Below, piece after piece: positions 21,766 to 48,156 of a stretch of 64,000 bases of DNA. The position numbers and the translations under genes are program-made. Location: positions 32,001 through 96,000 of the IMG/VR virus record IMGVR_UViG_3300014043_000503; one strand, 5' to 3'. Below the pieces are notes generated by a model that saw only the letters and a list, made by a program, of their open reading frames with translations, ran no database searches and had not been told where the DNA came from. The first letter of the stretch is position 1. Each line of letters starts with the position of its first letter. Source of the stretch: a virus (taxonomy: Duplodnaviria > Caudoviricetes).

Positions 21766-23136
21766 ATGCCTACAAACACTAATTTGGGTGGTGTCTTCAT
21801 GAAGGACACTGACGGCAATCTGAACACCGGTACATACCTGAGTTCCGAGAACGTCTGTGGTATCATCTTTGACACCAAGGTCGTTGGAGGTCTCGCAGCA
21901 GCTCTCGGAAGCGGCGATGCTGCCACCAACTTTGCAAATGGCAATGTGGTTGAACTGAACACGATGGACGATATTGCCGCAGCAGGTATCACCTCGTCCG
22001 TCATGTGCGGTCTGCCATTGTTCCATCTGACCCAATTCTTCCAGCTGGCAGGCGACAATCAGCGTTTGTTCGTGAGCTTCATGGACTCCACGTCCGATGC
22101 AAGCTTCACGGCTATTGAGCAGATGCAGCTGGCAGCCAAGGGTCTTATCTATCAGATCGGCGTATGGACAGGTGAGGCTATCGCTACCGCTCCTGAAGGC
22201 AATGGCGACTACAACGTAGTTACCAACGGAGTCCTCTCCAAGCTTCAGGCACAGGCAGAGGTTCTCGGCGGCAGGATCGGCCAGACGAACTTCGAGGGCA
22301 ATGCCCCCGTCAACATCGTCCTCACGGCTCCCATCATCAATGCCGCCACGTGCGACTACAACAAGCTCCCCGACCTGACATCCCTGAATATGCCGAAGGT
22401 GACTATGCTCGTCGGTCAGGCTGCAGGCAAGGAAGTCCACGACATCCAGCTTGCCCTTGCAACGTCCGTCGGCGAGACTACGAGCTATGCACTCGTCGGC
22501 TGCGTCGGTGCAGTCCTCGCTTGCCTGGCCGTTGCTCCAGCTGATGAGAGCATTGCCCACGTTGAGAACTTCAACATGGCTCAGGCAATGACGTCTGCGG
22601 AGCTCGGTTTCGGCAACCTTACCGTTACGAGCGGAGCCTACAATGCCGCTGCATCGTTCACCAACATTGACACCATCGGTTACACCAAGCGCAACACCAA
22701 GCTCCACCAGAAGGGCTATGTCTTCCTGACCACCCTCGACGGCATTGAGAACGGCGTGTTCGCTTCCAGTGACCAGACTCTCTCTACGGGCGACTACCGC
22801 CTTATCTCCCGCTGCCGTGTGATGCACAAGTCTCGCAGGGTTGTCCGTCGCTCCCTCCTCCCCTACGTCAACCAGACCTGGGAAGTTGACTCAGCCACGG
22901 GAACGCTCGGTGAGGATGACATCACCATCATCTCCAACACGGTTTACAGGGCCATTGATAACAACATGGTTCAGCCCGGCACCTCGAATCCGCAGATCAG
23001 CGGCCGAGAGGTTGTCATCGACCCGAATCAGGACATCCTGTCCTCCGATCAGCTGTTGATCACCTACAAGCTGGTTCCGAAGGGTACTACGGCTGCCATC
23101 TATGTTACCGAAGGGTTTAGTTCAAGCATTGGTTAA
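21766..23136 (+). CDS. tail sheath protein 1 (DUF2586-like)
   Basis: KGYVFL, DY..ISR.RVMHK..R..R and IDPNQDILS sheath C-terminal motifs; precedes tube. Confidence 0.75.
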   Translation: MPTNTNLGGVFMKDTDGNLNTGTYLSSENVCGIIFDTKVVGGLAAALGSGDAATNFANGNVVELNTMDDIAAAGITSSVMCGLPLFHLTQFFQLAGDNQRLFVSFMDSTSDASFTAIEQMQLAAKGLIYQIGVWTGEAIATAPEGNGDYNVVTNGVLSKLQAQAEVLGGRIGQTNFEGNAPVNIVLTAPIINAATCDYNKLPDLTSLNMPKVTMLVGQAAGKEVHDIQLALATSVGETTSYALVGCVGAVLACLAVAPADESIAHVENFNMAQAMTSAELGFGNLTVTSGAYNAAASFTNIDTIGYTKRNTKLHQKGYVFLTTLDGIENGVFASSDQTLSTGDYRLISRCRVMHKSRRVVRRSLLPYVNQTWEVDSATGTLGEDDITIISNTVYRAIDNNMVQPGTSNPQISGREVVIDPNQDILSSDQLLITYKLVPKGTTAAIYVTEGFSSSIG

Positions 23137-24439: not shown

Positions 24440-25790
24440 TGAGAGTTTTGATAACCGCCAGCCCTTTTTCTAAGGAACTGCAAACCTGTCTTTTGTCAGA
24501 CTGGATTTACTGCATTGGCGTTTCATAGGGTGTCTGTTGACATTGCCCTCACCGCCCAGAACCCCGTTTCCTTACGGGGTTTTATTTTTTATCGCAACCA
24601 AAGCTTGAGGGTGCAAGCCAAACTGCAATATGTTCTTAGCTGCATTGACATCCCTGTCATGATGTTCTCCACATACAGGACACGTCCATTCTCTCACTTT
24701 AAGGTTTTTCACTTCTTTATTTTGATGACCACAATTACTGCATATTTGTGAACTTGGATCAAAACGCCCAATAAACACAATGTTTTTCCCACGCCATTCA
24801 GCTTTATAGGTCAACTGTCTTACAAATTCATTCCAGGCAACGTCTGATATGCTTTTTGCAAGATGGTTATTTTTCAGCATTCCGCTAATGTTTAAGTCTT
24901 CCAGACACACAGTGTCATAATTCTTAATAAGGTTCGTTGACAGTTTATGAAGATAATCAACCTTTTGGTTTCTTACCTTTCTATATTGCCTTGCAACTTT
25001 TAACCTTAATATTTCATGACGCTTAGAGTGTTTATCGGTTCTTGCGAATTTTTGCTGAAGCCTTTTTAGTTTCTTTTCTCCACATTTAAAATGTTTTGGA
25101 TTAATATACTTTGTACCATCAGAAAGTATGGCAAAATCCTTGATTCCCAAATCAATACCAATGGCAGTTTCTTCTTGTATCTTGACTTTCGATACAATGG
25201 GATTGTCATCATCAACTGTGATTGAGCACCAATAATCGCCACATCTATCCTTATATACAGTTAACGTTCCTATTTTACAGGCAGATAGGTCAAATTTACG
25301 GTTTTTACACAGTTTAACCCAACCCACCTTTGGAATCTTTACCTTGTAATTGTCAAAATCAAAATGTACATTATTTATAAATTTACAAACACTCTTTGAA
25401 TGTTTCTTTGATTTAAATCTTGGAAAATCCGCTTTTGCTTTGAAAAATCTTGTAAAGGCATTATCGAGATTTCTCAATGACTGCTGCAACACGTTTATAG
25501 AGCATTCATTAAGCCATTTTGTTTCTTCTTGTTGCTTTAGAACCGTAAGTTCTTTAGCAAGCTGGATGTAAGTGAGATTTTTCTTGCTTTCTTTGTAAGC
25601 ATTGATTTTACGATCAAGACCCCAATTATATATGAAACGGGCACACCCGAAGAATTGGGACAACATACGTTGCTGTCTCACAGTCGGTTTAATCTTGTAT
25701 TTATACGCCCTTTCCATAATAGAAAACTTAAATTTTTTATTCTAATAGTATCTCAAGCCAACGAATATTTACAATCAATGTATTTTTTAA
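24440..25790 (-). mobile_element. TnpA-less tnpB element (ends approximate)
   Basis: AT-rich tnpB antisense to the tail operon; no tnpA; no canonical end hairpin recognised. Confidence 0.55.
24572..25717 (-). CDS. tnpB: TnpB RNA-guided endonuclease (IS200/IS605 family)
   Basis: [17 protein letters not shown] / EDLN / [10 protein letters not shown] RuvC triad intact, CSNC..CPVC zinc ribbon. Confidence 0.92.
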
Positions 25791-25860
25791 GTTTTGTTAG
25801 CAAGGTTTGAAAATAAATAAATGGAGACTATCAAATCTATTATATAAAAATTATACCACA

Positions 25861-27186
25861 ATGCCCGGATTAGGAAAGGTAACACTTGGAACCGTCAGCG
25901 ACAATTCATATATCAACATATCGTTTGACGAAAGTATTTGCGGAATGCTGTTTGACTACAGTTCAGACAGCGGTGTTTTTGACGCTCACCAGCTGATAGC
26001 CACCAACTTTGCGGACGGCCAGACTGTCGTTCTGAACGGTCTCGGTGACGCTGAAGGCTACGGTCTGCTGGATGAGAGCTTCATGTACGGCATCCCAGCC
26101 TACCATATCAGGAGGTTCTATGAGTTTGCCGACGATGATGCCGAGCTTTATGTCATGTTCGCCTCCTGCATCGCTGAATCTCAGGTATATACGCCAGACT
26201 TCAGCTGCATCCAGACCATGCAGAGGGCCGCGAAGGGAAAGATATTCAACCTCGGTATCTGGACGGAGCAGAGCGTATGGCAGATGAACGGAGAGGAAAT
26301 AGGCTTCACCCCGCTCATAGGAAACATACAGTCTCAGGCCATGGAGCTGTGCGGAGGCGACGGCATGTTTGCCAACAACGTATCTCCGCTAACCGTCATC
26401 CTCAATGCCAACACGTCTTCCATTTCCGGCTCTGACAGTAGGGAGGTGGATTTCAAGCACCTGCCCTATGCCAATTCGCTCGAATGCAACAAGGTAACGC
26501 TTCAGATAGGCCAGGAATCCTCGGACAAGATACACTCCATGCAGCTCTCAACGGTCTCGTTGACACCCGTGGGGCTGATGGGCGTTGCACTCGGATTCCT
26601 CAACAGGGCGTCGGCTGAGGAAAGCATGGGCTTCGTAAAGAAATACGATATCAACGTAAACGACACCCTCCCAGACGTTGAGCTTGGATTCGGGAACGTC
26701 AGCGTGGGAGGCGACAACTACTACACCCCGCTATCAGACGTCAACAGGTTCCGCCAGAACATCATGTCTGAAAGCGGCTACGTGTTCCCGACCAGCTATA
26801 TCCCAAATGAAGGATCGCTGTACTTCAACAACGACCAGACCCTTTCCGAGAAGGACTTCAAGTACATATCAAGGAACAGGGTCATGAGCAAGGTGAAGCG
26901 CATCATCAGGAGCATCATGCTCCCGATGGTCAACGGCAGCCTCCTCGTGAACCATAAGACCGGCTACCTTGACAATGCCGAGATTACGGTCATCATGAGC
27001 AGGATTATCAGCGCGCTTGACGAATACCTCATCAATCCTGAAGGCCAGCTGCAAGTGGGCGGCAGGTGGGTTGACATCCCATTGGATCAGAAAGTGCTTG
27101 AAACGGATTCTATCAGCATGACCGTCCAGATCGTACCGCTCGACACCTCCGAGGTAATCAAGTTTGAAGACACGTATAGCATTTAA
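25861..27186 (+). CDS. tail sheath protein 2 (paralog of 21766..23136)
   Basis: Start re-called at MPGLGKV after CTATTAT; colinear motifs CGMLFD, MQRAAKG.I..GIWT, ELGFGN, DQTLS..D...ISR.RVM.K. Confidence 0.75.
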   Translation: MPGLGKVTLGTVSDNSYINISFDESICGMLFDYSSDSGVFDAHQLIATNFADGQTVVLNGLGDAEGYGLLDESFMYGIPAYHIRRFYEFADDDAELYVMFASCIAESQVYTPDFSCIQTMQRAAKGKIFNLGIWTEQSVWQMNGEEIGFTPLIGNIQSQAMELCGGDGMFANNVSPLTVILNANTSSISGSDSREVDFKHLPYANSLECNKVTLQIGQESSDKIHSMQLSTVSLTPVGLMGVALGFLNRASAEESMGFVKKYDINVNDTLPDVELGFGNVSVGGDNYYTPLSDVNRFRQNIMSESGYVFPTSYIPNEGSLYFNNDQTLSEKDFKYISRNRVMSKVKRIIRSIMLPMVNGSLLVNHKTGYLDNAEITVIMSRIISALDEYLINPEGQLQVGGRWVDIPLDQKVLETDSISMTVQIVPLDTSEVIKFEDTYSI

Positions 27187-27211: not shown

Positions 27212-30200
27212 ATGGCAGATAGGGTTTATTCAGTCAGATATGACATTGTTGCTGAAGCAGGCAAGGCTATAGAAACATTCAATTCCTTGCAGAATCCGCT
27301 TTATAATTTAAAGCGAAATTCGCAAAAGCTGTCTTCCAGCCTTATGACAACGGTAGAGCGGCTTAATACGCTTAAAGAGACTTTGGACAAAATCTCAAGC
27401 ACGAGCAGAAATATAGAAATAAGCGTTACCTTTGATATTGCCTCCTTTAATAGAAACCTGAAAGAAATGGAGCTAAACGCAAGGGCTTCTGCAAACAGGA
27501 TCAGGGGTACGTTTGAATCTGTTTTCAAGGATACTCATGGTGATTACATGAAAAAGCAATCTCTTCTCGGCACGCCAATAGAGCAGGGCGTGTCTTCGGG
27601 AGACAAGGAGTTGAGAAAGAGGCTAAAAAAGGAAAACAAGACTATGCAATCCCTTATTGGTAAAATGAGGGAAGCGAGAAAGCAGGCTGATATTTATACT
27701 ATAGCAAAAAGAAATCTGGCCGGTAATGTCAGCGAAAAAGATGCTATCAGCTCAATTTCGAGCATATGGAAGGGCTTTGGCAAAACATCACTGGCCAGTT
27801 TAAAAAAGAAGATAAGAGAAGGAGTTTATGATACGACTGTCTTATTGGATAAGGCTGAGAAAGACTTGTGGAGGTCTTTGAATGCAGGGGCGCTTGCTCC
27901 TTTGGAGAATGGTTCTTTTTTGAACCTTGTCGATGTGGCAAGAGATAATACTGACAAGATATTTAAAGCTATAGAAGAAAGAAGGAAGTCAAATATTGCA
28001 AATATAGCGTCAGTTCAGAAAGAGCAAAAGGATATTGCAAAGAATACAAAGCCGTTAATGGGTAGCCAAAAGGTTGTTCCGGGGCAACCTTTCCTTTCTG
28101 AAATATCAACCAATCCAAGGGAAATAGCAAAAATCAGCGAGGCATATACAAAAATGCTCAGGAATATCTCTAAGATAGGCAACAAGAACATTTCCGTAAA
28201 TGTACGTGGCAACTACAGAAGTCACATGGAAAGCCTTGCTGAATTTGCCAAGACAATGCCGTTATTGAAAAGTAGGACAGTTAAAGTTAACGTAAACGTA
28301 AGCGGTCTTTCAAAAACAAGTCTTTCAAAAATAAAGGAACTGAGTGGGATAACCGACAAGAAAGTCCCGGTTTCCCTTACATTGTCATACAAGAATGCAA
28401 GAGATCAGGTTCCACGTACCCTTGGCGTGCTTCAGAGGATCATCGCTGAAAGGGGAGGTGTAAAGGTTCCGCTCACTATAGACCGTACAAAGGTCGGTGG
28501 GCAGCTCAATAGCCTTGTCAGGAACCTCAGGACGCTTATAGCTGAGAACAGGCTGACAATCCCGGTCAACCTTCAGAGCCTTGACATGAAGAAGCCTAAG
28601 AACGTGCCGACCATTAACGTGAAGGCGAAGGTTACTGGCCTGACGAGTGCCGTGAGGGAGGCTAACAAGGCATTCCAGGAGAGGGTGAGGAACATGAAGA
28701 ACTCCCCTGCCCTTAAAATACCCATACAGCTGAAGTGGGGCGACAAGGAGAACAACATGAGGGCTCAGATCAAGCGTATGCAGTCTTCGATCCCAGCCCT
28801 GAAGGTAAGCGTTGACCTGACGCTTGCGAAAGCCCAGATAGATGACCTTGCAGCCTATATCCAGAGAAAGGGTATCATCAACATGGGTGCCATGTCAGGG
28901 CCTAAGTCTCAGGGGCCGTTCAGGAACTACAGGCCAGGCTCAGGTGAATCGTTCGCTGCTGGCGCTGTCGGTGGCGGAAGAAGAGGTTCTGGAGGTGGTG
29001 ACAGCGGAGGCCGTGTATATGGCGGCGGAGGCGAAGGCAGCAACTTCCTGACAAGGCTGAGAAGGTTCGCATACCCACTCACAGGAAACCTTTCCTACGG
29101 TGCATCATCCCCGATGGCCCTGCAGATGTTCAAGGATATGCCTGTGATGATGGGTGTGGGCGGTGCCATCGGTGCCGTGACGAACGGTATCGGACAGGCA
29201 TTCGAATATCAGGACACAATGCGAGTGGCAAGGTCTATCCTCGAAAGGAGCTATAAGGGCAACAACTTCGAGAAGGACTACAGGAACATGGAAATGACCG
29301 CGAGGAACGTTGCGAGGAATACCAAGTTCACAGGCAAGGAGGCTGCTGATGCCGTCCGCTTCATGGCTATGGCAGGACTGGACATCCCGAAGATCAACAG
29401 CTCCATCAAGCCTATCGCGGACATCGCCCTCATCGGCAGGAACAACCTCGGTGACATTGCCGACATCATGACCAACGTCCAGACCACCTACAAGATACCG
29501 GCAGACAAGATGGAGCGCATGGCAGACGCTATGGCCAACACCTTCACCAAGACGAACGTCGATATGATGATGATTGCGGAATCCCTGAAGTATGCGGGCG
29601 GTATCGCTCAGCTTACGGGAACGTCGCTCGGTGATTCGCTCGCCATGATCGGCATCATGGGTAACAACGGTATCCAAGGCTCGATGGCCGGTACTTCAAC
29701 CCGTATGATGATGCAGAACATGATACGCCCGAACAAGGGTCAGGCTGCCATGTGGAAGAGCCTCGGCATCAGCACCACGGACGAGCATGGCTTCGTGAAG
29801 GATCCAATCAAGCTCCTTGGTGAGCTGAAGGGCTACGTTGACAAGAAATACGGAAGCAAGGAATACATGGAGCTCGGAAAGGGCGAGGAGTTCAAGAACA
29901 AGGCTCTGGGAACGCTTGTCTCCAACATGTTCCGCGTCACCTCTACGGCTGGCGTGGCTGCCCTGCTGCGTGACTATGACAAGCTGGTAGAGCTTTCGGA
30001 ATCCAACAAGAGCAGTTCCATCAACGGACTCTCAAGCCGTCTCTCAGGCTTCCAGCAGAATGAGGTGAAGGGTCTTGTCGCAAAGGTTTCCTCGTCGCTT
30101 CAGGAGCAGATACTCCAGATTATCGAGAAGAACACGGGCTGGATCAAGCAGAAGCTCATAGAAGCTAACGAGTGGATGAGCTCGCCCGAGACAAAGAGCA

Positions 30201-32995
30201 AGCTCGAAAGCCTTATCGAGACGCTGAAGAACATCGTTGACGGGTTCATAAACGTCGGCAGGGTCGCTCTCTGGGCCTATGAGAAGTTTAACAGCATCAA
30301 GATATTCGGAAACGGTCTGGTGGATTTCCTTATCAAGTTCCAGCTGTATATGACGGCCATTGGTTCTACGCTCAGGCTTGTCCTCTCACCACTTAATATC
30401 TTCAGCGGATTCAACTTCGGTGGAGGTATGGGCGCTGCTGGTGCTGTTTCAAGCATAGGCAGAATAATGGCTTCTTCTAAGCCCAGGGTAATTGCCAATG
30501 CGATTGGGCAAAGAGTGTATAATACTGAGAATGATGGCCTTGCTCCAATTACTACTGTATATAACTCAGGAAGTTATAAAAGGCCGTACTCTCGTGGATG
30601 GTACTCACCACTTGGGCAAATGCCCGTTGTTCTTGGCCCTATTGGTGCGAGAAATCTTAGGGACGAACAACAAGCATTAGCTACAATAAGCCCGATACAG
30701 CAACGAATGGCCATGTATCAGAGGTCGCGTAGCTATATGACAAGGGGGATGACAAAAAAACAGAAAGCACTTCAATATGCGTCAATAGACAGGCAGGTTG
30801 CCGCAATGCGTTCGCAAATCGCATCAGCAAGAACGGCAGCATATAATGAAACGCTTGCTTATGGCATAATGTCAAATGCATTCCCGCTTCTTTATCGTAG
30901 GACATCTCCAGTTATTCATGGAAGAACGACGGTGCCTTTTGCTTATAACAGAGAGATGAGACCTATGCCATTCTATCAGTATGCAAAAAATGCATCTGCA
31001 ATCAAATATGGAGGCGCCCCTATAGCAGAATATGCAGGTGAATATAGAAAAAGAGCCGGTATGTATGCGACTATGGCATTATCCGGAAAAAACTATAAAA
31101 AGCACGCTGAGCATATGAGGCTTGCTGAAATGTATAGAAAGGCAGCGCAACAAGCGGAATGGATGCAAATACAAGAAAGAAAAGCAGCTTTAGAAAGAAT
31201 GAAAAAAGCTGCAATGGCTTCAAGAAGACCTCAGCAGCTTCTTGATTCTGAATTAATTTCTGCGTTCATTATGAGCAGAGGGTTTAAGAGAAGCAAGGGG
31301 TTGATTGGCGAATCTTTGAGGGCTAATTTTAGAGCTGGCAGGGCTATGGGTGCTTTCAGGGGCTTAGGAGGCATCAAGAACAGTCTTATTTCAAGTTTGA
31401 CAACTGGATTCATGGGGTTGTCAAAGGCTATGGGGCTTGTGCTCAGTCCTATTGGTTTGGCTACAGCTGCTATCACAACCCTTGGAGCGGGCGCTTACTA
31501 CCTTTACAAAAAAGAGAAAGAAGGTAGAGAGGGAGCGCAAAGAACTATGAACCATTTAAAAAAGGTTCAGGAGCTAACCAATAGCAGGAATGGTGGTGGT
31601 GATTTATCATCGCTTCCAGAATCATCTCCGCTTCATGTTGGCGTAGCTTGGGTAAATAGAAATAAGAACGTTATTAGTCAAAGTTCCATAAAGGGAAATT
31701 CATTATTAAAAAATAATCCGTATTTTAGAGATGTTGTTGATCCTGACAGGGGTGTTCTTGCAAATAGCAAAAGATATAGGGCCTACAGAAAAGAATTATA
31801 CGATAAATACATTGCAAATGGATGGAATGTATATGGTGACAACATAATAGATGAATCGACATTTAATAACGGAAATACATGGTATAAATCCCTCCAAGGA
31901 GCATCTATGCTTCAGGGATCAAATTCCAATCGCGTAAGAGCTTGGGAAAAATATATATCAAATCAAGCAGCGAGAATTTCTGCCATAAAAGATGTCGGTG
32001 AGCGCAATAAGGCTTGGGGAGAACTTGAAAAAAGAGTCAATGAGGTTTCAGAAAAATACAAGTTGCAAGCCCAAAATCTGCAATCCGTTATTGTCTTACA
32101 AGAAAAATATGGAGGTAATTTAAAGAACATAGGTCAAGCTGCAATTCTAAACACTTCAGAATATAGGATAGCAGAGGCTAAAGCTATTGCTAACCTTATG
32201 ACGAATATGGGTAACAATGCAGTCGGTCATTTTATTGCTTCTCACGTTCTTGATGCTGGAATTAAAGACAAAACTGGAGCAGCTATAAGGGCGTTAATTA
32301 GTGATATGCCCATTGGAGTTGCAAATGATTTTGGCCAATCATATAAAACAAATTTATCATTTGATAAGAGTGGCAATATTGATTGGAAAAAGTTACAAGA
32401 GACACTTGAAAAGAATGGTATTGATTTTAAGCTTACTGTAGATAATAAAATATCTGTCTTGTCTTCTTTATTAGCACAAATTAAGGGGAATCCTTATTAT
32501 GCTAAGGTAACTGAATATCTACAAAAGATATTGAATGCTCAATTAGCAGTTACGGAAGCTGAAAACACCCTTAAAAGACTGAATAGCGTTGATTTCTGGA
32601 GAGGTTTGTTTGACGGTATTATCGACGGGCCGAATCCAGTCAGAGAAATGCAGCGAAATACAGAAAGCAAAGTCAAAGAGGATGTTAAAAAGTGGAATAG
32701 TGATGATGGCGGATATATACGCCGTCCAAGAATGTTTAGAAGTCCGTTTGCCGATTATGCTAATAAAGCCTCTTACTCGACAACTGAAAGCATGGGCAAT
32801 AATAAATATATAACAAATGCGAGCTATGGTAAAGGCTATAACACCAGGCAGAATGTTGTTGTTAATGTTGGCGGCATTACAGTCAATAATGATGCTGACA
32901 TAAATGAAATTGAAGAGAGAATTGAAAGAGGGGTTGTTACTGCAATGAGGGCAGTGATGACCGACCAAAGCAATGATTCAATCTACAATATCTAA
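27212..32995 (+). CDS. tape measure protein
   Basis: 1927 aa; TP901-type core (TKFTGKEAADA..MAMAG, GIQGSMAGT); hydrophobic segment ending near 31500. Confidence 0.85.
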   Translation: MADRVYSVRYDIVAEAGKAIETFNSLQNPLYNLKRNSQKLSSSLMTTVERLNTLKETLDKISSTSRNIEISVTFDIASFNRNLKEMELNARASANRIRGTFESVFKDTHGDYMKKQSLLGTPIEQGVSSGDKELRKRLKKENKTMQSLIGKMREARKQADIYTIAKRNLAGNVSEKDAISSISSIWKGFGKTSLASLKKKIREGVYDTTVLLDKAEKDLWRSLNAGALAPLENGSFLNLVDVARDNTDKIFKAIEERRKSNIANIASVQKEQKDIAKNTKPLMGSQKVVPGQPFLSEISTNPREIAKISEAYTKMLRNISKIGNKNISVNVRGNYRSHMESLAEFAKTMPLLKSRTVKVNVNVSGLSKTSLSKIKELSGITDKKVPVSLTLSYKNARDQVPRTLGVLQRIIAERGGVKVPLTIDRTKVGGQLNSLVRNLRTLIAENRLTIPVNLQSLDMKKPKNVPTINVKAKVTGLTSAVREANKAFQERVRNMKNSPALKIPIQLKWGDKENNMRAQIKRMQSSIPALKVSVDLTLAKAQIDDLAAYIQRKGIINMGAMSGPKSQGPFRNYRPGSGESFAAGAVGGGRRGSGGGDSGGRVYGGGGEGSNFLTRLRRFAYPLTGNLSYGASSPMALQMFKDMPVMMGVGGAIGAVTNGIGQAFEYQDTMRVARSILERSYKGNNFEKDYRNMEMTARNVARNTKFTGKEAADAVRFMAMAGLDIPKINSSIKPIADIALIGRNNLGDIADIMTNVQTTYKIPADKMERMADAMANTFTKTNVDMMMIAESLKYAGGIAQLTGTSLGDSLAMIGIMGNNGIQGSMAGTSTRMMMQNMIRPNKGQAAMWKSLGISTTDEHGFVKDPIKLLGELKGYVDKKYGSKEYMELGKGEEFKNKALGTLVSNMFRVTSTAGVAALLRDYDKLVELSESNKSSSINGLSSRLSGFQQNEVKGLVAKVSSSLQEQILQIIEKNTGWIKQKLIEANEWMSSPETKSKLESLIETLKNIVDGFINVGRVALWAYEKFNSIKIFGNGLVDFLIKFQLYMTAIGSTLRLVLSPLNIFSGFNFGGGMGAAGAVSSIGRIMASSKPRVIANAIGQRVYNTENDGLAPITTVYNSGSYKRPYSRGWYSPLGQMPVVLGPIGARNLRDEQQALATISPIQQRMAMYQRSRSYMTRGMTKKQKALQYASIDRQVAAMRSQIASARTAAYNETLAYGIMSNAFPLLYRRTSPVIHGRTTVPFAYNREMRPMPFYQYAKNASAIKYGGAPIAEYAGEYRKRAGMYATMALSGKNYKKHAEHMRLAEMYRKAAQQAEWMQIQERKAALERMKKAAMASRRPQQLLDSELISAFIMSRGFKRSKGLIGESLRANFRAGRAMGAFRGLGGIKNSLISSLTTGFMGLSKAMGLVLSPIGLATAAITTLGAGAYYLYKKEKEGREGAQRTMNHLKKVQELTNSRNGGGDLSSLPESSPLHVGVAWVNRNKNVISQSSIKGNSLLKNNPYFRDVVDPDRGVLANSKRYRAYRKELYDKYIANGWNVYGDNIIDESTFNNGNTWYKSLQGASMLQGSNSNRVRAWEKYISNQAARISAIKDVGERNKAWGELEKRVNEVSEKYKLQAQNLQSVIVLQEKYGGNLKNIGQAAILNTSEYRIAEAKAIANLMTNMGNNAVGHFIASHVLDAGIKDKTGAAIRALISDMPIGVANDFGQSYKTNLSFDKSGNIDWKKLQETLEKNGIDFKLTVDNKISVLSSLLAQIKGNPYYAKVTEYLQKILNAQLAVTEAENTLKRLNSVDFWRGLFDGIIDGPNPVREMQRNTESKVKEDVKKWNSDDGGYIRRPRMFRSPFADYANKASYSTTESMGNNKYITNASYGKGYNTRQNVVVNVGGITVNNDADINEIEERIERGVVTAMRAVMTDQSNDSIYNI

Positions 32996-33000
32996 AAGTA

Positions 33001-33025
33001 AGGCTGGCGAAATACGTCAGCCTTA
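33001..33025. terminator. probable bidirectional terminator
   Basis: AGGCTGGCG-AAATA-CGTCAGCCT between convergent genes. Confidence 0.65.
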
Positions 33026-33032
33026 TTATTTG

Positions 33033-33269
33033 TCATTCTATTTCAACCCATGCAGTATCGACTCTTAACGGTGAATCTTCAGGAAGAGTAGATAGGTCAA
33101 AGTCACCATTATTGTTATTTGTCATCTCTTTTACTTTTTCCAAATGATCAAATGTTCGTTTTACACCTTCTTTGGCTCTCACTTCTCCTTTATATAGAAA
33201 ATGCCCCACAATACAGGCTAAAACAAAGAAAAAGGAAATCGCTAAAGCCAAAATAGTATTCTTTTTCAT
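33033..33269 (-). CDS. membrane-anchored tape-measure-mimic protein (moron)
   Basis: N-terminal TM helix then 30/51 identical residues to TMP segment 31502-31654; own TATATTTG promoter at 33294-33301. Confidence 0.8.
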   Translation of the reverse strand: MKKNTILALAISFFFVLACIVGHFLYKGEVRAKEGVKRTFDHLEKVKEMTNNNNGDFDLSTLPEDSPLRVDTAWVEIE

Positions 33270-33419
33270 ATCTTTCAGGTTTTAAGTTTTCGGCAAATAT
33301 ATTTCGAAATATCAGAATTTCCAAAAAGAAAGCGAAAATTTTGTATTCTTTCACAACTTAAAACGATTTTGCCCTTCCCAAAACTTTCTTTTTGTTTATT
33401 TTTTCTTTTAGAAATAAAC

Positions 33420-34058
33420 AACTGCTGGGGACAGCTGGAGAGCAGCATTCCCTTACCCGCAAATGTTGGTTTGCGGTTTGAAGGGATATTATGACTTACT
33501 CTCCGAGGTCGTTACAACTGCAGTACGACGAGCCTTGTATGAGCGCAACATTTGCAGCCGTCTTTTTAGGTTACTGGATTCACCATCAGACTGTCACTAC
33601 TTACACAAATTGGACTGTGCATTTGCGTCGCAGGTTCATTCAGGAGTCCTTTCCTGTGAGTTCCACCACCCCGCTCATCTTGCAAGTTTCCGGCCTGCAA
33701 GCCCTTCCCGTGGTGCCGCCTTTACTAACTCTTCTTCCCTGGCGGTCTCGCTCGCTCCCGGTGGCGCTGAATACCCGTCGGTTTCCCTCTCCGCTTTCAA
33801 AACCTTACTCCTGCCTTTTGAAACCCGTTCAAATACAGTTTCGGTTTATCCATCCCTCAGATTGGTACTCATTAGCGAGCCAGTCGTCTATCGGATCCCA
33901 GCTTGCCATCGCTTTACAGTTGCGGAGTAATCTCGACGCAAAAGGCAGGCCCCGGCCTTCCCCGATGTTTGTGAGTGGAGCTTACTATCAGACGACGGAG
34001 TTCACACCACTAAGGTTTTCTTGAGAACAAAGGCTAACCGTTATGAACCTTGATTTTT
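33420..34058 (-). ncRNA. large structured ncRNA (ROOL/GOLLD-sized, family unassigned)
   Basis: CTATTAT promoter motif at 34063-34069 (minus); GC-elevated island with several long-range 7-11 bp complementarities and many local hairpins; no credible ORF. Confidence 0.65.
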
Positions 34059-34180
34059 TTGCATAATAGTAGCCTTGTCTTTCAAATCTTGCAGCATTGG
34101 CCTTGATTTATATTTTATTAACAAGGTTTGAAAATAAATGCCATTGCCAAACATGACTATTATTTAAAAAAATTGAAGTA

Positions 34181-35266
34181 ATGGCAAAATCAGGATTCAT
34201 AAAGCTGACGGACGACGTGCTTCAGAGCGGAGCAAGCTCAGCCATCAGCGCAACGGCCTCCATCGGCATAGACTGGCTGAACACTCAGTTTGGCAGCGGA
34301 TTCAGGAGTAGCGGCACGAAGTTCTACTGGAATAAGGACATGCACGGCGGGATACTTGACGTCGTGGTGAGCAGTGCGTTTACGACCATGAGCGGCATGC
34401 TGAAAGACTATGCCCTGGAACAGTATAAGAACCTGATAGGGCTGAACAAGAAAGGCAATGTCAATGGAACCAACGAGGCTGTAAAAATCATCAGCGATAA
34501 CTTCAAGACCCCGACTGACCAGGTTAAAGGGAGCGAATACGGCATTGTCTCGATAGGTGACGGCAAGACTATCTCTGCTCTTGATTGTTATGGAAACAGA
34601 TGTGTCGATGCCATCATGCTGAAAATACCCCTGAAGACACCTATCAACATTACAAGGAAGATTGCAAGAAGCAACGGAGACAGTTCTGCCGGAAGCTATA
34701 AGGAAACAATATCCAGCAAATACCTCGTCTGGTATGACTGCACGGCCATCGTAGCCCCCAACAGCAAGAAGAACATCCTCGTTACGAAGGTGAGCGGAAG
34801 GGACTACAGCCGAAAGGAATTTATCTCGAACGGTGACATAGAGTTCTCAGTCTCTGGCAGGCTCAACAGCAACATTGCCGACGTGTATCCTGAGAACGAG
34901 GTGAAGAAGTTCAAGCACATCATGGACTACAAGGGGCTGATAGAGGTGAACAACCAGGTTCTCAATACGCTGGGCGTGGAGAAGATATTGGTTCTGGACT
35001 GGGACATCAGCCCCCAGAAGGGATATAAGAACATGCTGGAGTATTCCTTTCACGGCATAGGCATCATGCCGTCCGTGGAGGTCAAGGCTTCAGAGGACAC
35101 CGTTACCTTCATCAACTCTGCCATTGCATCCGGTTCTTCTGAAAGGACAGGCTGGAGTGCCCTTCTCAGCAACAAGCTTGAGGGCTTGAAGGAGGCATCC
35201 GTAGGCATACTTGACCAGGGTGCATCCACCGCGATAGGAATACTTGACAACGACTATATACTTTAA
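34181..35266 (+). CDS. baseplate/tail tube initiator-like protein (DUF6046-like)
   Basis: KKNILVTKVSGRDYSRKEFISNGD...YPENEV motif; first gene after TMP. Confidence 0.55.
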   Translation: MAKSGFIKLTDDVLQSGASSAISATASIGIDWLNTQFGSGFRSSGTKFYWNKDMHGGILDVVVSSAFTTMSGMLKDYALEQYKNLIGLNKKGNVNGTNEAVKIISDNFKTPTDQVKGSEYGIVSIGDGKTISALDCYGNRCVDAIMLKIPLKTPINITRKIARSNGDSSAGSYKETISSKYLVWYDCTAIVAPNSKKNILVTKVSGRDYSRKEFISNGDIEFSVSGRLNSNIADVYPENEVKKFKHIMDYKGLIEVNNQVLNTLGVEKILVLDWDISPQKGYKNMLEYSFHGIGIMPSVEVKASEDTVTFINSAIASGSSERTGWSALLSNKLEGLKEASVGILDQGASTAIGILDNDYIL

Positions 35267-43300: not shown

Positions 43301-46300
43301 GACATACGTATTCGCAGGACACAACTCAAAGCTCTGGAACTGCCTTGAGGGTGACGCTGAGTTTATGAACATCGTGAAGGACGTTGACCAGGCACTCTAC
43401 GGCTACTACAACTATGAGTCTTGCTGCAGGATGTTCGATGAGGAGCAGTCTGACAAGTGGTGCGAGGCCATCTACAACGAGAACGGACGCTACAAGTATA
43501 TCGAGCCATACCTTGCCGGAACCGACTACCTTGCCATGCTTCAGGGTTCGCGTAAGTCACACCGTCACTACTGGCTCTCACACCGTTTTGAGATGCTGGA
43601 TGCACGGTGGGGCACGGGCAGCTTCATCCAGAACTCCATCGAGTTCAAGTGCAATACCGGAACGGTGGTGACGGCTGAAAAGAAGCTCACCATCATCGCC
43701 GGAAAGAAGCTCAACTATGCCTGGGGCCTTGATAACGCAATCTATGAGCACACCGGCGTCCTCGATGCGAACGAGACCAAGGTGTTCATCCCATACGACC
43801 AGGGCGTGAGGGAACTCGCCATCGGTAACTCCGTATGTATCTACCCAGCCCCCTGCATCGAGGGCATAGACGTGTCTGACTTTGCCGACACCATGCGAGA
43901 GATACACTTCTCAAAGGCGGCAAACGGATTCACCGGCTGCTACCTGAAGAGGCTCATCATCGGAGGCGCTTCGGTAAACAACCAGCTCGACTTCAACATG
44001 GACGGCCTGACAGCCATCGGAAGCGTGGAGTATATCGACGTGAGGGGATTCCACAGGATGACCTCGCTCGACCTCTCAACGCTCATCAACCTCCATACGT
44101 TCCTTGCAGAGAACAGCGGTATCACCTCGTTCATCCCATCCTCAGGCTGCGTGCTTGAATCGGTTTCGCTCCCATCCAGCATCCAGACGCTTGAGCTTGT
44201 GGACGTGACTATCCCGACCGTCAATACGTTTGCATACACCCCGACCAGCGCCCTCCAGTACCTCACCCTCAGGAACGTGAAGGGTGATGGCATTGACTCG
44301 CTCGCCTTCATCATGACATGGCTGAATGCCATCGGAGATGACGAGGAAAGGCTGGCAGAGGTTGAGCTTATCGCAACCAACGTGGCTTGGAGCAACGTAA
44401 CGGTCGAACAGCTGTTTGCCATCGGAAAGATCGGGAACAGGACGCTCTCAGGCGTGGCATCGCTCTCGACCACACCGAGCGATGAAGACCTGCAGAAACT
44501 CATCGAGCTTTACGGGACAGACTGCTTCAAGTCTGACGCGCTGTTCATGATCGACGCTGAAGGAGGTACGCTTTTCTACGGCCCCAGCACCCTGAAGTCC
44601 GGAGAGGAAAGCTACTACGGCTATATCGGATTCCCCATCACGGGAGGCTCTTCACAGTATTCGCTACTTATCCCGGGAGGTGTGTACAACGAGACTACGA
44701 GGCTATATGAATACGATACCGTGACGCTGAACCCTGAGACCGGCCTTCTGCTTACGACTGAAAGCGGGACGGACTGCGATTTCGTCATCAGGGCCAAGTC
44801 GAACTTTGACGAGAGCGTCTATTTCGAAAAGCAGGTAAGCGTCAAGGCAAGGTCTTATCCCCAGAGCGTCACCCTCACCGTTGACAGGGAGAACATCAAC
44901 AGCACCTCACAGGAATGTATCTTCACGGCAGAGCTTTCCCCTGAGGTGTTTGACGGAACCATAAGCGTCGCATGGAGCTGGAACGACAACAATTTCTACA
45001 AGATATCGGAATGGAAGGTTGACAACAACACATATTGTGCCAAGTTCGGTACGGTGTATATCTCAGACAAGCTGCTTGAGGTAGATGTGACGGCCACCTT
45101 CACAACCTATATCGGAGGCGTCGTCGCGGCTTCGTCCTATGTCGTGGTCAGCAACAAGACGATCGCCATGACGAGCAGGACGAACCATGAGGCAATGGCG
45201 GCTACATACGCGGCTGGATTCAGCAACAGCAGCAGGGTCTTCAGCACCGAGGAGGCCAGGGCCGTGAAGAGCCTTGGCATGGCCTATGCCGGATCAGACA
45301 TCGTGACCTTTGACGAGTTCAAGTATTTCACGGGTCTCACCTCCATTCCTGCAGGTGCGTTTGCAGGGTGCCTGAGCCTTGAGGAAATCACCATCCCGGC
45401 TTGTCAGGCCACCATCGGAGATGCGCTCTTTGAAGGCTGTGCATCCCTTGAGAAGATAACGCTCAACCATCCTTCATGGAGCAACAGGTATCTCGGAAGC
45501 GGAACCGTATTGTCTGAGTATGCCGTAGGAGCTGAGAACACCAACCTCAGGAGTTTCGACGGCATCATATACGACGTGCTGGGAACGGAGCTCTATGCAG
45601 TACCGGCCAACATCACGGAGATAGCGTTCGAAAGCACCATGACCGCCATCCATGCAGGCGCGATGGCTTACTGTGACATAGAGGAAGTGACCATACCGAC
45701 AGTCATTACAGTCGTTCCCGATCAGATGTGTAAGGGCTGCACTTCCCTTGTCACGGCCATCCTCTCGACTGGAACCGTAAGCGTTGGCGCAAAGGCTTTC
45801 GAGGGCTGCGCTGCGCTGAAGAAGCTTGAGGTAAGGACGGCATCAGTACCTACCCTCGTCAATGCGGATGCGTTTACTGGAACGCCCATCAACGGAGGCG
45901 CGGGCTATATCTATGCGACTACCGATACATGGGGGGACTTCAAGGCCGCTACCAACTGGATCACATATGCCAGCAACATCATCGCTTACATCATCTTTGA
46001 GGACGCTGAGGTCAGCAGGATATGTTGCACGACCTGGGGTGACTATATCGAGGTGAAGGTGACTACTGTCATTACCGACGAAAGCGACGTGGTGAACATC
46101 ACGACCGTCACCACCCCCGTATCCATGAGAAACACCACCGCTACAAGGGGAACCTCGGTCACTGAGACATCTACGAGGGCCAAGACTTCTGAAGATACGG
46201 CAGGCTCTACGACCACTACCACAAAGACACCCGTCAGCATGACAACCATGCAGGCTGCTGCTGTAAGTTCTATTGGGACTATTGTTAACGTTCTCGGACA

Positions 46301-46661
46301 CTTAAAGATTGTAGATGTCACACGTACATTCCCAACAACGGTTCCTATTTACGGACTGATAGCAGTTTATACAATCAAAACAGCGGATTGCTCTGTTGTT
46401 TTCAATACTGACACCAGCCACACTATACGATTGTTCATGTGGAATATGTATTGGGGCTATATTGACGGTGGTGGCTCATATAGAGTTATTACAACGTGGA
46501 GAAGTATTGGCGATAATAAGTATTTAACATTCTTCGATGATTCACGTTCTAATCCTTATGTTGATGTTTACGTCAACTTTTCAACCATTAACGGTTATCA
46601 ACCACAAAACTATAAAACAGGCTATGTATTTGCCCTTGTCGATAGCAGAAATCTTGAATAA
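40326..46661 (+). CDS. giant tail adhesin/receptor-binding protein (Ig-like, LamG-like, CotH-like and BspA-type LRR regions; switchable C-terminus)
   Basis: Start re-called at MAKKDLY; QGTSSLKYPRKNF / YNFNNDKS / YDNDT motifs; LTSIPAGAFAGCLSLEEITIP LRRs; GC drop at 46270. Confidence 0.8.
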   Translation: MAKKDLYTEDIDKHVNWNGDETTGGKKVRGDKVQKFIKDTFEGKVGYVHTDTEEARCYAFADEEEYKKWEADGRPEGAYISTWEAPANYSAEIIDNDGAAIRYVAVDDKDVYLNFTPRITNKSGQNTNESVTVTITYSNNGTNVTVTNNYISGTSVSILMDSYLQVGTNSITIKVTGASSKATTSIGITVYKLALTLTSTFAFNSMFPTGYINVPYHLEGNGTKTVEIFLDGTKVGDSSTYSTKTDNSFNVNAVTAGVHTIQLRAFIDNNGTAFYSRTLYFQVVVGEIDRVGFAMSAELPRGGLITSDNSVALTGEQFARINFDWAIVTSRSATYSVVFNDGTRDVSSVTTSSGQLHTFTYLSKTAGVVTIRVSYGSEELEIPITFVESTLKISDYTNDLILDLSAEGRSNSDTDKDSWISNGYASTFSNFAWSKRSGWNGQALVVSNGATLDVNIRPFSFNPTSRGTTIEIEFETADVEDEEAVICRCGAGSNGLTITPVNATLAATGGSKIFTEFKNDERIRLAFVINPYSGVTDSKLLYIVNNGINERGRSYATQNDFNISDTLHFYSTGATIKIYNIRIYQQAVPVSNLLDNRIISSDNISSLFEKNDIYEDGKVSLTKLRNMIPVMCITHINRSGNPSLLSLSDKDTRSYNNVEYTNPFDPTRNFTAFNMRWRLQGTSSLKYPRKNFRFYTKYCDYLYDANGIEITSKKYSFKVGSIPVNCFCLKADAAESSGTHNTGIARLVNDAMKNMRISSSVAAKYGKSYDTEYLGKTQAQINAENNGYEYDVRTCIDGFPIVIFYRYSDVSDWIFLGQYNFNNDKSTEDVFGFTGENATGHSECWECLDNTNPNALFTDISNWYEDVTDEEGSTVKGWERAFEARYPDDGSDANTANLYTFATWLVGSTVGSAKFTAEKWEHMDVWKMAAYYVYLMRFAGADQFVKNSMLTTEDGEHWYYINYDNDTVMGLENNGDLTIPFNADRQTQAADMTYVFAGHNSKLWNCLEGDAEFMNIVKDVDQALYGYYNYESCCRMFDEEQSDKWCEAIYNENGRYKYIEPYLAGTDYLAMLQGSRKSHRHYWLSHRFEMLDARWGTGSFIQNSIEFKCNTGTVVTAEKKLTIIAGKKLNYAWGLDNAIYEHTGVLDANETKVFIPYDQGVRELAIGNSVCIYPAPCIEGIDVSDFADTMREIHFSKAANGFTGCYLKRLIIGGASVNNQLDFNMDGLTAIGSVEYIDVRGFHRMTSLDLSTLINLHTFLAENSGITSFIPSSGCVLESVSLPSSIQTLELVDVTIPTVNTFAYTPTSALQYLTLRNVKGDGIDSLAFIMTWLNAIGDDEERLAEVELIATNVAWSNVTVEQLFAIGKIGNRTLSGVASLSTTPSDEDLQKLIELYGTDCFKSDALFMIDAEGGTLFYGPSTLKSGEESYYGYIGFPITGGSSQYSLLIPGGVYNETTRLYEYDTVTLNPETGLLLTTESGTDCDFVIRAKSNFDESVYFEKQVSVKARSYPQSVTLTVDRENINSTSQECIFTAELSPEVFDGTISVAWSWNDNNFYKISEWKVDNNTYCAKFGTVYISDKLLEVDVTATFTTYIGGVVAASSYVVVSNKTIAMTSRTNHEAMAATYAAGFSNSSRVFSTEEARAVKSLGMAYAGSDIVTFDEFKYFTGLTSIPAGAFAGCLSLEEITIPACQATIGDALFEGCASLEKITLNHPSWSNRYLGSGTVLSEYAVGAENTNLRSFDGIIYDVLGTELYAVPANITEIAFESTMTAIHAGAMAYCDIEEVTIPTVITVVPDQMCKGCTSLVTAILSTGTVSVGAKAFEGCAALKKLEVRTASVPTLVNADAFTGTPINGGAGYIYATTDTWGDFKAATNWITYASNIIAYIIFEDAEVSRICCTTWGDYIEVKVTTVITDESDVVNITTVTTPVSMRNTTATRGTSVTETSTRAKTSEDTAGSTTTTTKTPVSMTTMQAAAVSSIGTIVNVLGHLKIVDVTRTFPTTVPIYGLIAVYTIKTADCSVVFNTDTSHTIRLFMWNMYWGYIDGGGSYRVITTWRSIGDNKYLTFFDDSRSNPYVDVYVNFSTINGYQPQNYKTGYVFALVDSRNLE
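46270..46279 (+). repeat. shufflon crossover site 1 (CTATTGGGAC)
   Basis: Inside adhesin gene, encodes S-I-G-T. Confidence 0.8.
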
Positions 46662-47086
46662 TTACAAATCATATATCACAGTAAATCCACAGTATGACGT
46701 ACTTGTAAGCTTAGAATAAAAAGTCCAAGACGAATCATATCCAGTGGCACCAACAGGCACATGAAACTCGTTTGTTCCTGAATTTCTTGTATTATAACCT
46801 GTTGATGTAGCTGAAGCGTTACCGAATATATATCCATTATCTGCTGTTTTAGGAACTGTCTGCGGATAACACAATATTTTCTTGAGCCTCGGAGTATTTG
46901 CAAATGATCCGTTTCCAAAGCGATTTACGGAAGCTGGAATCCAAATCTCAGTTAATTGGCTACATCCATTAACAAATGAACGTCCCATAGTCTTTAGTTT
47001 AGAAAAGTATATAAGCTCCCTGAAAGTAACTATCTTTGTATTATTAGTGAATACAGTTGTTGAACTTGTGTTTGCAGTCCCAATAG
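46662..47086 (-). other. silent C-terminal cassette B (LRR), starting at crossover site 2 (47077-47086)
   Basis: Open frame SIGTANTSSTTVFTNNTKIVTFRELIYFSKLKTMGRSF... continuous with track ORF 46662..46988. Confidence 0.8.
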
Positions 47087-47096
47087 AGCTACAATC

Positions 47097-47623
47097 CTAT
47101 TGGAACTCTAATCAACAAAATAATAAACATTGCTAATAGCCACTTTCCAGAGGGTGTATATTTTACAGGATTATCTACGACTTGGACAAATGGTCTTAGA
47201 GGCAACACGGGATTGGTAGAGTTATATATGCCAGACCACATATTGTATCTTAACCTTAATTATTTTATTTACTACGACACTGTTTTAAAGAAAATACATA
47301 TTCCAAGAAACCTCGTTGAATGGACTGGCTACCAAACACTATTATTTAATGCAAAACCGTCCGTTCCGATTGATTTCCCTGAAAGTTGCAAAAAGCTTAA
47401 CTTTAAGTCCAGTAGCGATAAATCGGTTTCAAAATGTGATGTCATATTGCGTTCCCAAACATTAGTTGATGTCCAGCCCTCTTCCTACACCAACATATTT
47501 GCAAATGATGTAAATATATATGTTCCAAGTGTTTTGATAGATAGCTACAAAGCATTAAACCCATTTGCTAATCGTAACGTATATGCTATAGAGGGTTCTA
47601 AATATGAAAATGTGATATATTAA
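47097..47623 (+). other. silent C-terminal cassette C, starting at crossover site 3 (CTATTGGAAC 47097-47106)
   Basis: Open frame PIGTLINKIINIANSHFPEGVYFTGL... continuous with track ORF 47213..47623. Confidence 0.8.
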
Positions 47624-47646
47624 AAACTATGCGGCGAGTACACGGG

Positions 47647-48152
47647 TTAAACTGTGTACTCACTCATAGACTTAATCTTAGAAGCAATGCCAGACCAAAC
47701 GGAAGCGGCCTTGTATGCGCTCACGCTTTCATCTGGAACATAGACGGCAGTTAACTTTGTGAGATAGTTATTACTTCCGAGATCCGGAGGCGTGACGGCT
47801 CTACAAATAACTATAAAATTCTTTTGGTTTGTATCATAAGGTTGAAGAGAATAACCATTCATTGTTTTCATAGTTGACGGAAAATCAATCAGCGTTATGT
47901 TTCTACTTTCCCAACACCACCTGCCATAAGTGGTAGTTAAACCTTCATTAAATTTCAAAGTTGTTAGATTTAGACAATGTCTGAAACAGTATGAATTAAC
48001 CGATGTTCCTATATTTCTCAGACTTGTTGGGAATATAATTTCTGCAATACCACTTCCTTCAAAAGCACCATTGGCCAGCGTAGTTAAGTTGAAGAACATA
48101 AATTCATGGAACTTGCGGATTGTGGTATTGTTACGGAACGCCGTCCCAATAG
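47647..48152 (-). other. silent C-terminal cassette D (LRR), starting at crossover site 4 (48143-48152)
   Basis: Open frame PIGTAFRNNTTIRKFHEFMFFNL... continuous with track ORF 47647..48099. Confidence 0.8.
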
Positions 48153-48156
48153 GACG

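What the first reader, a model, noticed from the sequence alone, without database searches (positions are those of the whole stretch)
31502..33301. Membrane-anchored mini-protein that copies a segment of the phage's own tape measure protein: candidate mimic-based superinfection exclusion
Seen: the 78-aa gene 33033..33269 is convergent with the TMP and has its own host-type promoter (TATATTTG, 33294-33301). It encodes a TM helix followed by LYKGEVRAKEGVKRTFDHLEKVKEMTNNNNGDFDLSTLPEDSPLRVDTAWV. This aligns without gaps to TMP LYKKEKEGREGAQRTMNHLKKVQELTNSRNGGGDLSSLPESSPLHVGVAWV (31502-31654), 30/51 identical. In the TMP this segment also directly follows a hydrophobic helix, so the topology is mimicked too. 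Known: TMPs help form the DNA-injection conduit and engage inner-membrane host proteins, and Sie morons such as HK97 gp15 and TP-J34 Ltp act on TMP-dependent entry without being TMP copies. Inference: a dominant-negative decoy that occupies the host partner or poisons the incoming TMP channel of kin phages. I know of no described example.
Basis: partly seen in the sequence, partly recalled or inferred. Interest (0 to 1): 0.9.

Follow-up and report, generated by a model that had tools for sequence, protein, structure and literature searches.

The report
Tape-measure mimic gene captured by host
A family of cow-rumen Prevotella prophages carries a small membrane protein that copies one segment of the phage's own tape measure protein and changes in step with it, and the host bacterium has captured this gene into its chromosome and swaps its versions, which points to an untested mimicry-based block on phage DNA entry.

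Summary
Observation confirmed: the 78-aa gene (33033-33269, minus strand) matches tape measure protein (TMP) residues 1431-1481 at 30/51, ungapped (E 9e-20). It is not a relic. In all eight non-redundant related phages examined it sits between the TMP and baseplate-hub genes with its own promoter and terminator motifs, under purifying selection (dN/dS 0.11-0.38). Its soluble part tracks the phage's own TMP allele: 55% identity to own versus 42% to other TMPs (permutation p about 1e-4); 6 of 8 match their own type best. New here: the host species (rumen Prevotellaceae, RUG030-like) holds a 0.65-1 kb piece of this phage region in its chromosome. Junctions are fixed but cargo varies: three configurations, two with tandem mimic genes, one read on 24 of 24 contigs examined. 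This looks like one capture followed by allele replacement through recombination. Best reading (0.6): allele-specific superinfection exclusion by TMP mimicry, co-opted by the host. No expression, binding or protection data exist. No TMP-derived exclusion protein was found in the papers searched. The scan noted a similar mimic in another Bacteroidales phage (e1-5849204, not checked here).

The parts
33033..33269 (-). Mini gene, 78 aa: N-terminal membrane anchor plus TMP-like domain
   Evidence: homologues; dN/dS
33198..33254 (-). Predicted transmembrane helix of the mini-protein (residues 6-24); not homologous to the TMP helix
   Evidence: AlphaFold model helical over residues 4-52, low overall confidence
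33045..33197 (-). TMP-like domain of the mini-protein (residues 25-75)
   Evidence: 30/51 identity to TMP 1431-1481; allele tracking
33294..33325 (-). Bacteroidota-type promoter motif: TATATTTG (33294-33301) and TTTG (33322-33325), 20-nt spacer
   Evidence: TATATTTG conserved 22-25 nt before the start codon in all 13 copies examined; activity not tested
32997..33027 (.). Terminator-like hairpin between the convergent TMP and mini stop codons
   Evidence: a hairpin of different sequence at this place in all 11 copies folded
27212..32995 (+). Tape measure protein, 1927 aa, contractile-tail module
   Evidence: PF10145 E 7e-35; PHROG TMP families; sheath genes upstream
31427..31483 (+). Most hydrophobic helix of the TMP (residues 1406-1424)
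31502..31654 (+). TMP segment that the mini-protein copies (residues 1431-1481); at least five allelic types in the family
32891..32995 (+). TMP 3' end, homologous to the right arm of the host chromosomal cassette
34169..34341 (+). 5' end of the DUF6046 baseplate-hub gene, homologous to the left arm of the host chromosomal cassette
33420..34070 (-). Optional insert upstream of the mini gene: candidate structured non-coding RNA of about 650 nt (separate element, absent from most relatives)
   Evidence: 76-78% identical copies in L019-L025; 22 compensatory pairs among 4 sequences; no Rfam family

Best explanation
The gene is a lysogen-expressed moron that gives allele-specific superinfection exclusion by copying the TMP. 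Shown: it is a conserved, selected, independently punctuated gene whose soluble domain is a paralogue of the segment just after the TMP's main hydrophobic helix; it tracks the TMP allele of its own phage; the host chromosome has captured it and holds several alleles. Inferred: the protein sits in the inner membrane (positively charged N-terminus inside, TMP-like helix probably periplasmic). When a related phage injects, its TMP crosses the inner membrane to build the DNA conduit; the mimic presents the same surface at the same height above the membrane and either joins the incoming TMP oligomer as a dead subunit or occupies the host protein that this segment docks on. DNA entry fails. I weight the dead-subunit mode above the receptor-competition mode (about 60:40), because close allele tracking is expected for a self-association surface. 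Phages escape by replacing the TMP C-terminal third together with the matching mimic. The host gains prophage-free immunity from a captured copy whose flanking phage fragments act as homology arms for allele replacement.
For: Homology and topology. Same position in all related phages: W, L007, L008/9, L018, L019/20, L021-26, L027, L028, L103-111. Distant relatives BS-TP1 and MT835494 have TMP abutting the hub gene with no insert, so it is an added moron. Conserved promoter motif and terminator hairpin; dN/dS 0.11-0.38 in six closest pairs. Cognate identity 55% versus 42%, permutation p 1e-4 over 8 phages and 1/120 over 5 TMP types. Cognate minis carry 21 of 58 type-unique TMP residues, against 16 in total over the four non-cognate sets. 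Natural swaps: L021 and L019 TMPs are 94-100% identical over about the first 1100 residues, 44-64% over the C-terminal part, and have different minis; W and L021 are 39-68% identical in the N-terminal 400 residues but 82-95% after the helix and share the mini type. Host capture: same species as the prophage host (98%; 97-98%); identical outer junctions around 655-, 955- and 981-bp cargoes; right arm matches the phage that donated the allele (93% to W, 99% to L018). Known exclusion proteins act on TMP-dependent entry (PMC3594210, PMC10883804).
Against: No expression, localisation, binding or plating data. Two of eight phages (L007, L027) carry a mini that does not match their own TMP type best. 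The eight phages are related and mosaic, so the permutation p overstates independence. Monophyly of the minis is not formally rejected (AU p 0.063). The side of the membrane on which either domain lies is inferred only. The chromosomal copies come from metagenome assemblies; one is truncated (L015) and the RUG030 genome has other cargo in the slot.
Confidence: 0.6

Rival explanations
1. Membrane safeguard (immunity-like): the mini binds the phage's own TMP in the inner membrane, closing the entry channel after injection or stopping newly made TMP from damaging the membrane in late infection.
For: Also predicts allele tracking and a membrane anchor. Host capture could help cells survive entry.
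Against: Phages with non-cognate pairs exist (L007, L027) and relatives lack the gene, so it is not essential. Opposite strand and a host-type promoter fit lysogen expression rather than late expression.
Confidence: 0.12
2. Tail-assembly interference: the mimic traps newly made TMP of a superinfecting phage on the membrane, so entry is normal but tails are not built (Tab/Tai-like outcome).
For: Prophage protein Tab targets TMP and blocks tail assembly (PMC10884400). A self-association mimic could sequester TMP.
Against: Tab and Tai phages need a counter-defence gene to build their own tails; none was identified here although the mimic matches the phage's own TMP. The mimic domain is probably periplasmic (inferred), away from assembly.
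Confidence: 0.1
3. Anti-defence decoy: the mimic soaks up host or rival-phage defence proteins that recognise the TMP.
For: TMP-binding defences exist: SNIPE (PMC13190303), Avs18 (PMC13581612). A decoy would track its own TMP.
Against: The host chromosome keeps and updates several alleles under purifying selection, which makes little sense for a protein that disarms host defence. Avs18 binds a central conserved TMP segment, whereas the copied segment is allelic.
Confidence: 0.08
4. Ordinary envelope-modifying moron or minor virion/lytic helper whose TMP ancestry is incidental, with similarity kept by occasional gene conversion between the inverted paralogues.
For: At type-unique shared residues codons are identical in 16 of 21 cases, and L103 has a 17-nt identical run, hinting at DNA-level copying.
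Against: Overall silent identity is no higher in cognate pairs (49% versus 52%; four-fold sites 38% versus 46%), so copying is not recent, and matching persists at the protein level in five separate types.
Confidence: 0.08
5. Neutral relic of a partial TMP duplication; chromosomal copies are prophage debris or misassemblies.
For: One chromosomal copy is truncated (L015); all chromosomal evidence is metagenomic.
Against: Intact frame, conserved promoter and terminator, dN/dS well below 1; identical junctions in 14 of the 16 chromosomal contigs checked from ENA and Logan assemblies, the other two holding one junction each.
Confidence: 0.02

Closest known systems
HK97 gp15 moron (superinfection exclusion; PMC3594210, PMC10883804)
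   Same: Small membrane protein gene inserted next to the TMP gene with own promoter and terminator; exclusion depends on the incoming tail tube/TMP region.
   Different: gp15 is related to bacterial YebO, not to the TMP; it lies upstream of the TMP gene. Here the protein is a TMP paralogue, lies downstream and convergent, tracks TMP alleles, and moved from phage to host.
TP-J34 Ltp, Tuc2009 Sie2009, P22 SieA, mycobacteriophage NBJ gp45 (PMC10883804; bioRxiv 10.64898/2025.12.12.693979)
   Same: Envelope proteins that block DNA entry; escape maps to the TMP (Ltp, gp45) or to ejection proteins (SieA).
   Different: None is described in the passages read as a copy of its target. Ltp is a lipoprotein; the mini family has no conserved lipobox.
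Tab and Tai tail-assembly inhibitors (PMC10884400, PMC11364771)
   Same: Prophage-expressed; Tab targets the TMP.
   Different: They act on assembly, not entry, and come with a counter-defence gene; not described as TMP paralogues in the passages read.
Receptor-interference restriction genes derived from retroviral env, such as mouse Fv4 (own knowledge, not checked here)
   Same: A host captures a truncated viral entry protein gene and is presumed to use it against that virus.
   Different: Eukaryotic, no homology; an analogy only. Allele replacement through flanking viral arms is not part of that model.
Allele-specific entry exclusion of conjugative elements (Eex/TraG) and orphan immunity arrays of gut Bacteroides (own knowledge, not checked here)
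   Same: Paired alleles define exclusion groups; hosts collect alleles in tandem.
   Different: The exclusion or immunity protein there is not a copy of its target, and the systems are not phage tail-derived.

Membership tests
Moron (independent transcription unit inserted in a phage operon) | Insertion between genes that are adjacent in related phages | tested here: met
   BS-TP1 TMP and hub genes are 3 bp apart, MT835494 12 bp apart, no insert
Moron (independent transcription unit inserted in a phage operon) | Own promoter and terminator; GC content differs from neighbours | tested here: met
   Motifs conserved in 13 and 11 copies; GC 34% versus 48% for the window, though the adjacent TMP 3' part is also AT-rich (31-42%)
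Moron (independent transcription unit inserted in a phage operon) | Expressed from the repressed prophage | not testable with these tools
Injection-blocking superinfection exclusion proteins (HK97 gp15 type) | Small inner-membrane protein | tested here: inconclusive
   One strong hydrophobic helix in every copy; localisation predicted only
Injection-blocking superinfection exclusion proteins (HK97 gp15 type) | Blocks DNA entry without blocking adsorption; escape maps to tail/TMP | not testable with these tools
   Needs experiments; only co-variation with the TMP allele was shown
Injection-blocking superinfection exclusion proteins (HK97 gp15 type) | Sequence homology to a described exclusion or defence family | tested here: not met
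   No Pfam or PHROG hit; only chance-level PADLOC and NCBIfam hits; no informative Atlas match
Lipoprotein exclusion proteins (Ltp, Cor) | Conserved lipobox cysteine | tested here: not met
   Cys19 is absent from the 64-aa type and P0012, shifted in the alignment between types, and followed by more hydrophobic residues
Tab / Tai tail-assembly inhibitors | Blocks tail assembly after entry; paired counter-defence gene | tested here: inconclusive
   No partner gene in the interval in most relatives; the rest of the genome was not searched for one; phenotype untestable here
Tape measure protein (parent gene) | PF10145 core, long helical ORF after tail tube and chaperone genes | tested here: met
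   PF10145 E 7e-35 at residues 696-878; PHROG TMP hits; gene order

The most novel reading that the evidence does not exclude
A mimicry-based, allele-specific entry-exclusion system in which the inhibitor is a membrane-tethered copy of the phage's own DNA-injection protein, and which the bacterium has domesticated as a small chromosomal cassette that is updated, and extended in tandem, by recombination with phages through flanking phage homology arms: a recombination-refreshed, protein-level immunity locus.
Probability: 0.4. Interest if true: 0.92.

Novelty: new variant of a known kind. Interest (0 to 1): 0.8.

Why it matters
How the tape measure protein builds the DNA conduit across the inner membrane, and how exclusion proteins stop it, is still unresolved. 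A natural 50-residue mimic that tracks TMP alleles points at the surface that matters, and gives a ready matrix of five or more cognate pairs for specificity tests. The exclusion proteins in the papers read are unrelated to their targets. The chromosomal cassette is direct sequence evidence that a bacterium captured a single phage tail-derived gene and repeatedly exchanged its alleles, which would be a simple form of updatable immunity.

Tried and rejected
Searches of viral contigs with the mini protein, the TMP C-terminus and the 65-aa allele found nothing; the hub and TMP-core queries found one contig, L018. No match to the TMP C-terminal part among GenBank phages. In 401 genomes of the host genus only chance helix-level hits appeared, and 18 DUF6046 loci there had no mini-like ORF within about 1.5 kb. 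P0007 is a spurious repeat-protein hit. AlphaFold gave one long helix at low confidence (pLDDT 64, pTM 0.27), so no fold search was run. No relative among solved structures. Rejected: lipoprotein (no conserved lipobox); recent wholesale duplication (silent sites saturated); misassembly of the chromosomal cassette (same junctions in independent assemblies). The 65-aa ORFs called in L022/L023 lie inside the non-coding RNA candidate and are unrelated to the chromosomal 65-aa gene. Nine of ten literature searches bore on the mimic; none returned a TMP-derived exclusion protein, but the library omits most subscription papers.
Full report
Context. The window lies in a 115-kb provirus with a contractile-tail module: sheath, tube, chaperones, TMP (27212-32995, PF10145), DUF6046 baseplate hub. 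Its left flank is 98% identical to an uncultured rumen Prevotellaceae genome, RUG030, which identifies the host species. The nearest cultured relative found, Bacteroides phage BS-TP1, has the same tail gene order at about 32% sheath identity.

Observation. Confirmed as stated. The 78-aa ORF at 33033-33269 (-) aligns without gaps to TMP residues 1431-1481, 30/51 identical, E 9e-20. Third codon positions match at only 19/51, so the similarity is old and kept at the protein level. The mini-protein has one strong hydrophobic helix at residues 6-24, and the copied segment follows the most hydrophobic helix of the TMP; the two helices are not similar in sequence. A Bacteroidota-type promoter motif and a terminator-like hairpin bracket the gene.

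It is a gene family. Profile searches gave about 24 clusters of 36-99 aa. Every phage context retrieved has the gene in the same place, between the TMP and the hub gene, on the opposite strand. TATATTTG lies 22-25 nt before the start in all 13 copies checked, and a terminator-like hairpin of varying sequence follows in all 11 folded. dN/dS is 0.11-0.38 in the six closest pairs. In BS-TP1 and MT835494 the TMP and hub genes abut, so the gene is an inserted moron. It has no Pfam or PHROG family, and only chance-level NCBIfam and PADLOC hits.

It tracks its own TMP. The copied segment occurs in at least five allelic types. If the mini were an old paralogue evolving independently, each mini would be equally distant from all TMPs. 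Instead mean identity is 55% to the own TMP and 42% to others; 4 of 40,320 permutations do as well, and 1 of 120 when collapsed to five types. Of 58 residues unique to one TMP type, the cognate mini carries 21; the four non-cognate minis together carry 16. The window's type shares a one-residue insertion and a tryptophan with its own TMP type only, and groups with it at 99/100 support. Natural swaps separate this from whole-genome kinship: L021 and L019 have TMPs 94-100% identical over about 1100 residues but different C-terminal parts and different minis, while W and L021 differ strongly at the N-terminus yet share the C-terminal part and mini type. The TMP C-terminal third and the mini therefore move as one specificity module. 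Caveats: the phages are related and mosaic; L007 and L027 carry non-cognate minis; the AU test does not reject mini monophyly (p 0.063). How the match is kept is open. Silent identity is no higher in cognate pairs (49% versus 52%), which argues for selection on the protein, but codons at type-unique shared residues agree in 16 of 21 cases, which hints at older gene conversion between the inverted paralogues.

The host has captured it. A 97% identical protein lies in contigs of core bacterial genes (ribD-, prmC-, recX-, comF- and pyrE-like), with no phage genes nearby. These contigs are 97-98% identical to RUG030. The captured piece consists of 173 bp of the hub gene 5' end, the promoter, the mini gene, the terminator and about 105 bp of the TMP 3' end. 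Three configurations were found at this slot: a single window-type gene (655 bp; L003-L006), a 65-aa gene plus a 77-aa allele (955 bp; L010-L014), and a 65-aa gene plus an 84-aa allele (981 bp; L097-L102). For the last, the index lists 69 blocks, and all 24 contigs read show the chromosomal context. All three share the same outer junctions, which indicates one capture. The inner parts differ. The right arm matches the phage that carries the same allele (93% to this prophage for the window type, 99% to L018 for the 84-aa type). The 77-aa and 84-aa chromosomal genes are identical for the first 73 nt and then diverge, so a crossover inside the anchor-coding region replaced only the TMP-like domain. 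The simplest reading is allele replacement by homologous recombination with phage DNA (inference). Chromosome-versus-phage pairs show dN/dS 0.11-0.23. RUG030 itself holds unrelated cargo in the slot, so the cassette is polymorphic in the species, and it was not found in 401 genomes of the genus.

How it most likely works. Established: TMPs are proposed to form the injection conduit, and exclusion proteins HK97 gp15, TP-J34 Ltp and NBJ gp45 are escaped through the tail/TMP (PMC10883804, PMC3594210, bioRxiv 10.64898/2025.12.12.693979). Inferred: the mini is made in lysogens, sits in the inner membrane, and displays the post-helix TMP surface. It then joins the incoming TMP oligomer as a dead subunit or occupies its host docking partner, and DNA entry fails. 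Allele tracking fits an exclusion-group arms race. Host retention and updating of alleles fits a function that benefits the cell and argues against a lytic helper or an anti-defence decoy. Non-cognate pairs and relatives without the gene show that it is not essential for the phage's own tail. I put this at 0.6. Rivals: membrane safeguard 0.12, tail-assembly interference 0.10, anti-defence decoy 0.08, incidental moron 0.08, relic 0.02.

Comparison with known systems. It meets the sequence-level tests for a moron and resembles HK97 gp15 in position and build, but it is not homologous to any described exclusion family, and gp15 derives from bacterial YebO. It fails the lipoprotein test. Tab and Tai act on assembly and need a counter-defence gene. 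SNIPE and Avs18 recognise TMPs but are large host defence proteins. The literature searches returned no exclusion protein that is a copy of the TMP, and no chromosomal cassette of this kind; the library is incomplete. Earlier AI notes of this scan describe similar mimics in other genomes; a sequence look-up found no shared words with them, so they may be independent cases, and I did not verify them.

Verdict. Real, selected and more elaborate than first reported. The function is inferred, not shown. I class it as a new variant of a known kind (TMP-directed superinfection exclusion moron), with a 0.4 chance that it is a mimicry-based, recombination-updated host immunity cassette with no described counterpart that I could find. 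Interest 0.8. Expression analysis and complex prediction could not be run.

Noticed in passing
window 33420-34070 (-); L019:8599-9272, L021:8597-9270, L022:8606-9229: Candidate large structured non-coding RNA of about 650 nt upstream of the mini gene; 76-78% conserved, 22 compensatory pairs among 4 sequences (3 lineages), no Rfam family; single-sequence folding z-score is unremarkable (0.2). Present in only some family members.
   Followed up: partly
L019/L021/L022:9449-9910, L023:908-1369: In relatives the non-coding RNA candidate is followed directly by an RNase H gene (PF00075, E 3.5e-28); this prophage has the RNA but no homologue of that RNase H.
   Followed up: partly
L010:2577-2774, L097:5690-5887: A divergent 65-aa membrane protein precedes the mini in tandem chromosomal cassettes, with its own copy of the promoter; distantly related to the family (E 3e-12); no matching TMP type found.
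   Followed up: partly
L030:12028-14409: The RUG030 genome has a different 2.4-kb, three-gene cargo in the same chromosomal slot, next to a DUF4160/DUF2442 pair (reported as a toxin-antitoxin pair in PMC12065111): an insertion hotspot upstream of a pyrE-like gene.
   Followed up: partly
L015:2252-2362: Chromosomal mini truncated after residue 28 and joined to a different locus (ribosomal S30AE and histidine biosynthesis genes): rearrangement or misassembly.
   Followed up: no
window 25807-27186: A second tail-sheath-like gene (DUF2586, phrog_907) lies between the tail chaperone genes and the TMP, in addition to the sheath at 21766-23136; conserved in relatives (L008, L019, L021).
   Followed up: no
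window 24572-25717 (-): IS605-type TnpB gene inserted in the tail operon; absent at this place in L008, L019 and L021.
   Followed up: no
window 27212-32995: The TMP gene is a mosaic: GC 39-41% at the 5' end, 54-55% in the conserved core, 31-45% in the 3' part; N- and C-terminal parts reassort independently among relatives.
   Followed up: partly
G000:C1:25475-26758 (outside the window): Earlier scan notes report a reverse transcriptase with a hairpin array in this prophage and a recombinase shufflon at window 46260-49146; not examined here.
   Followed up: no
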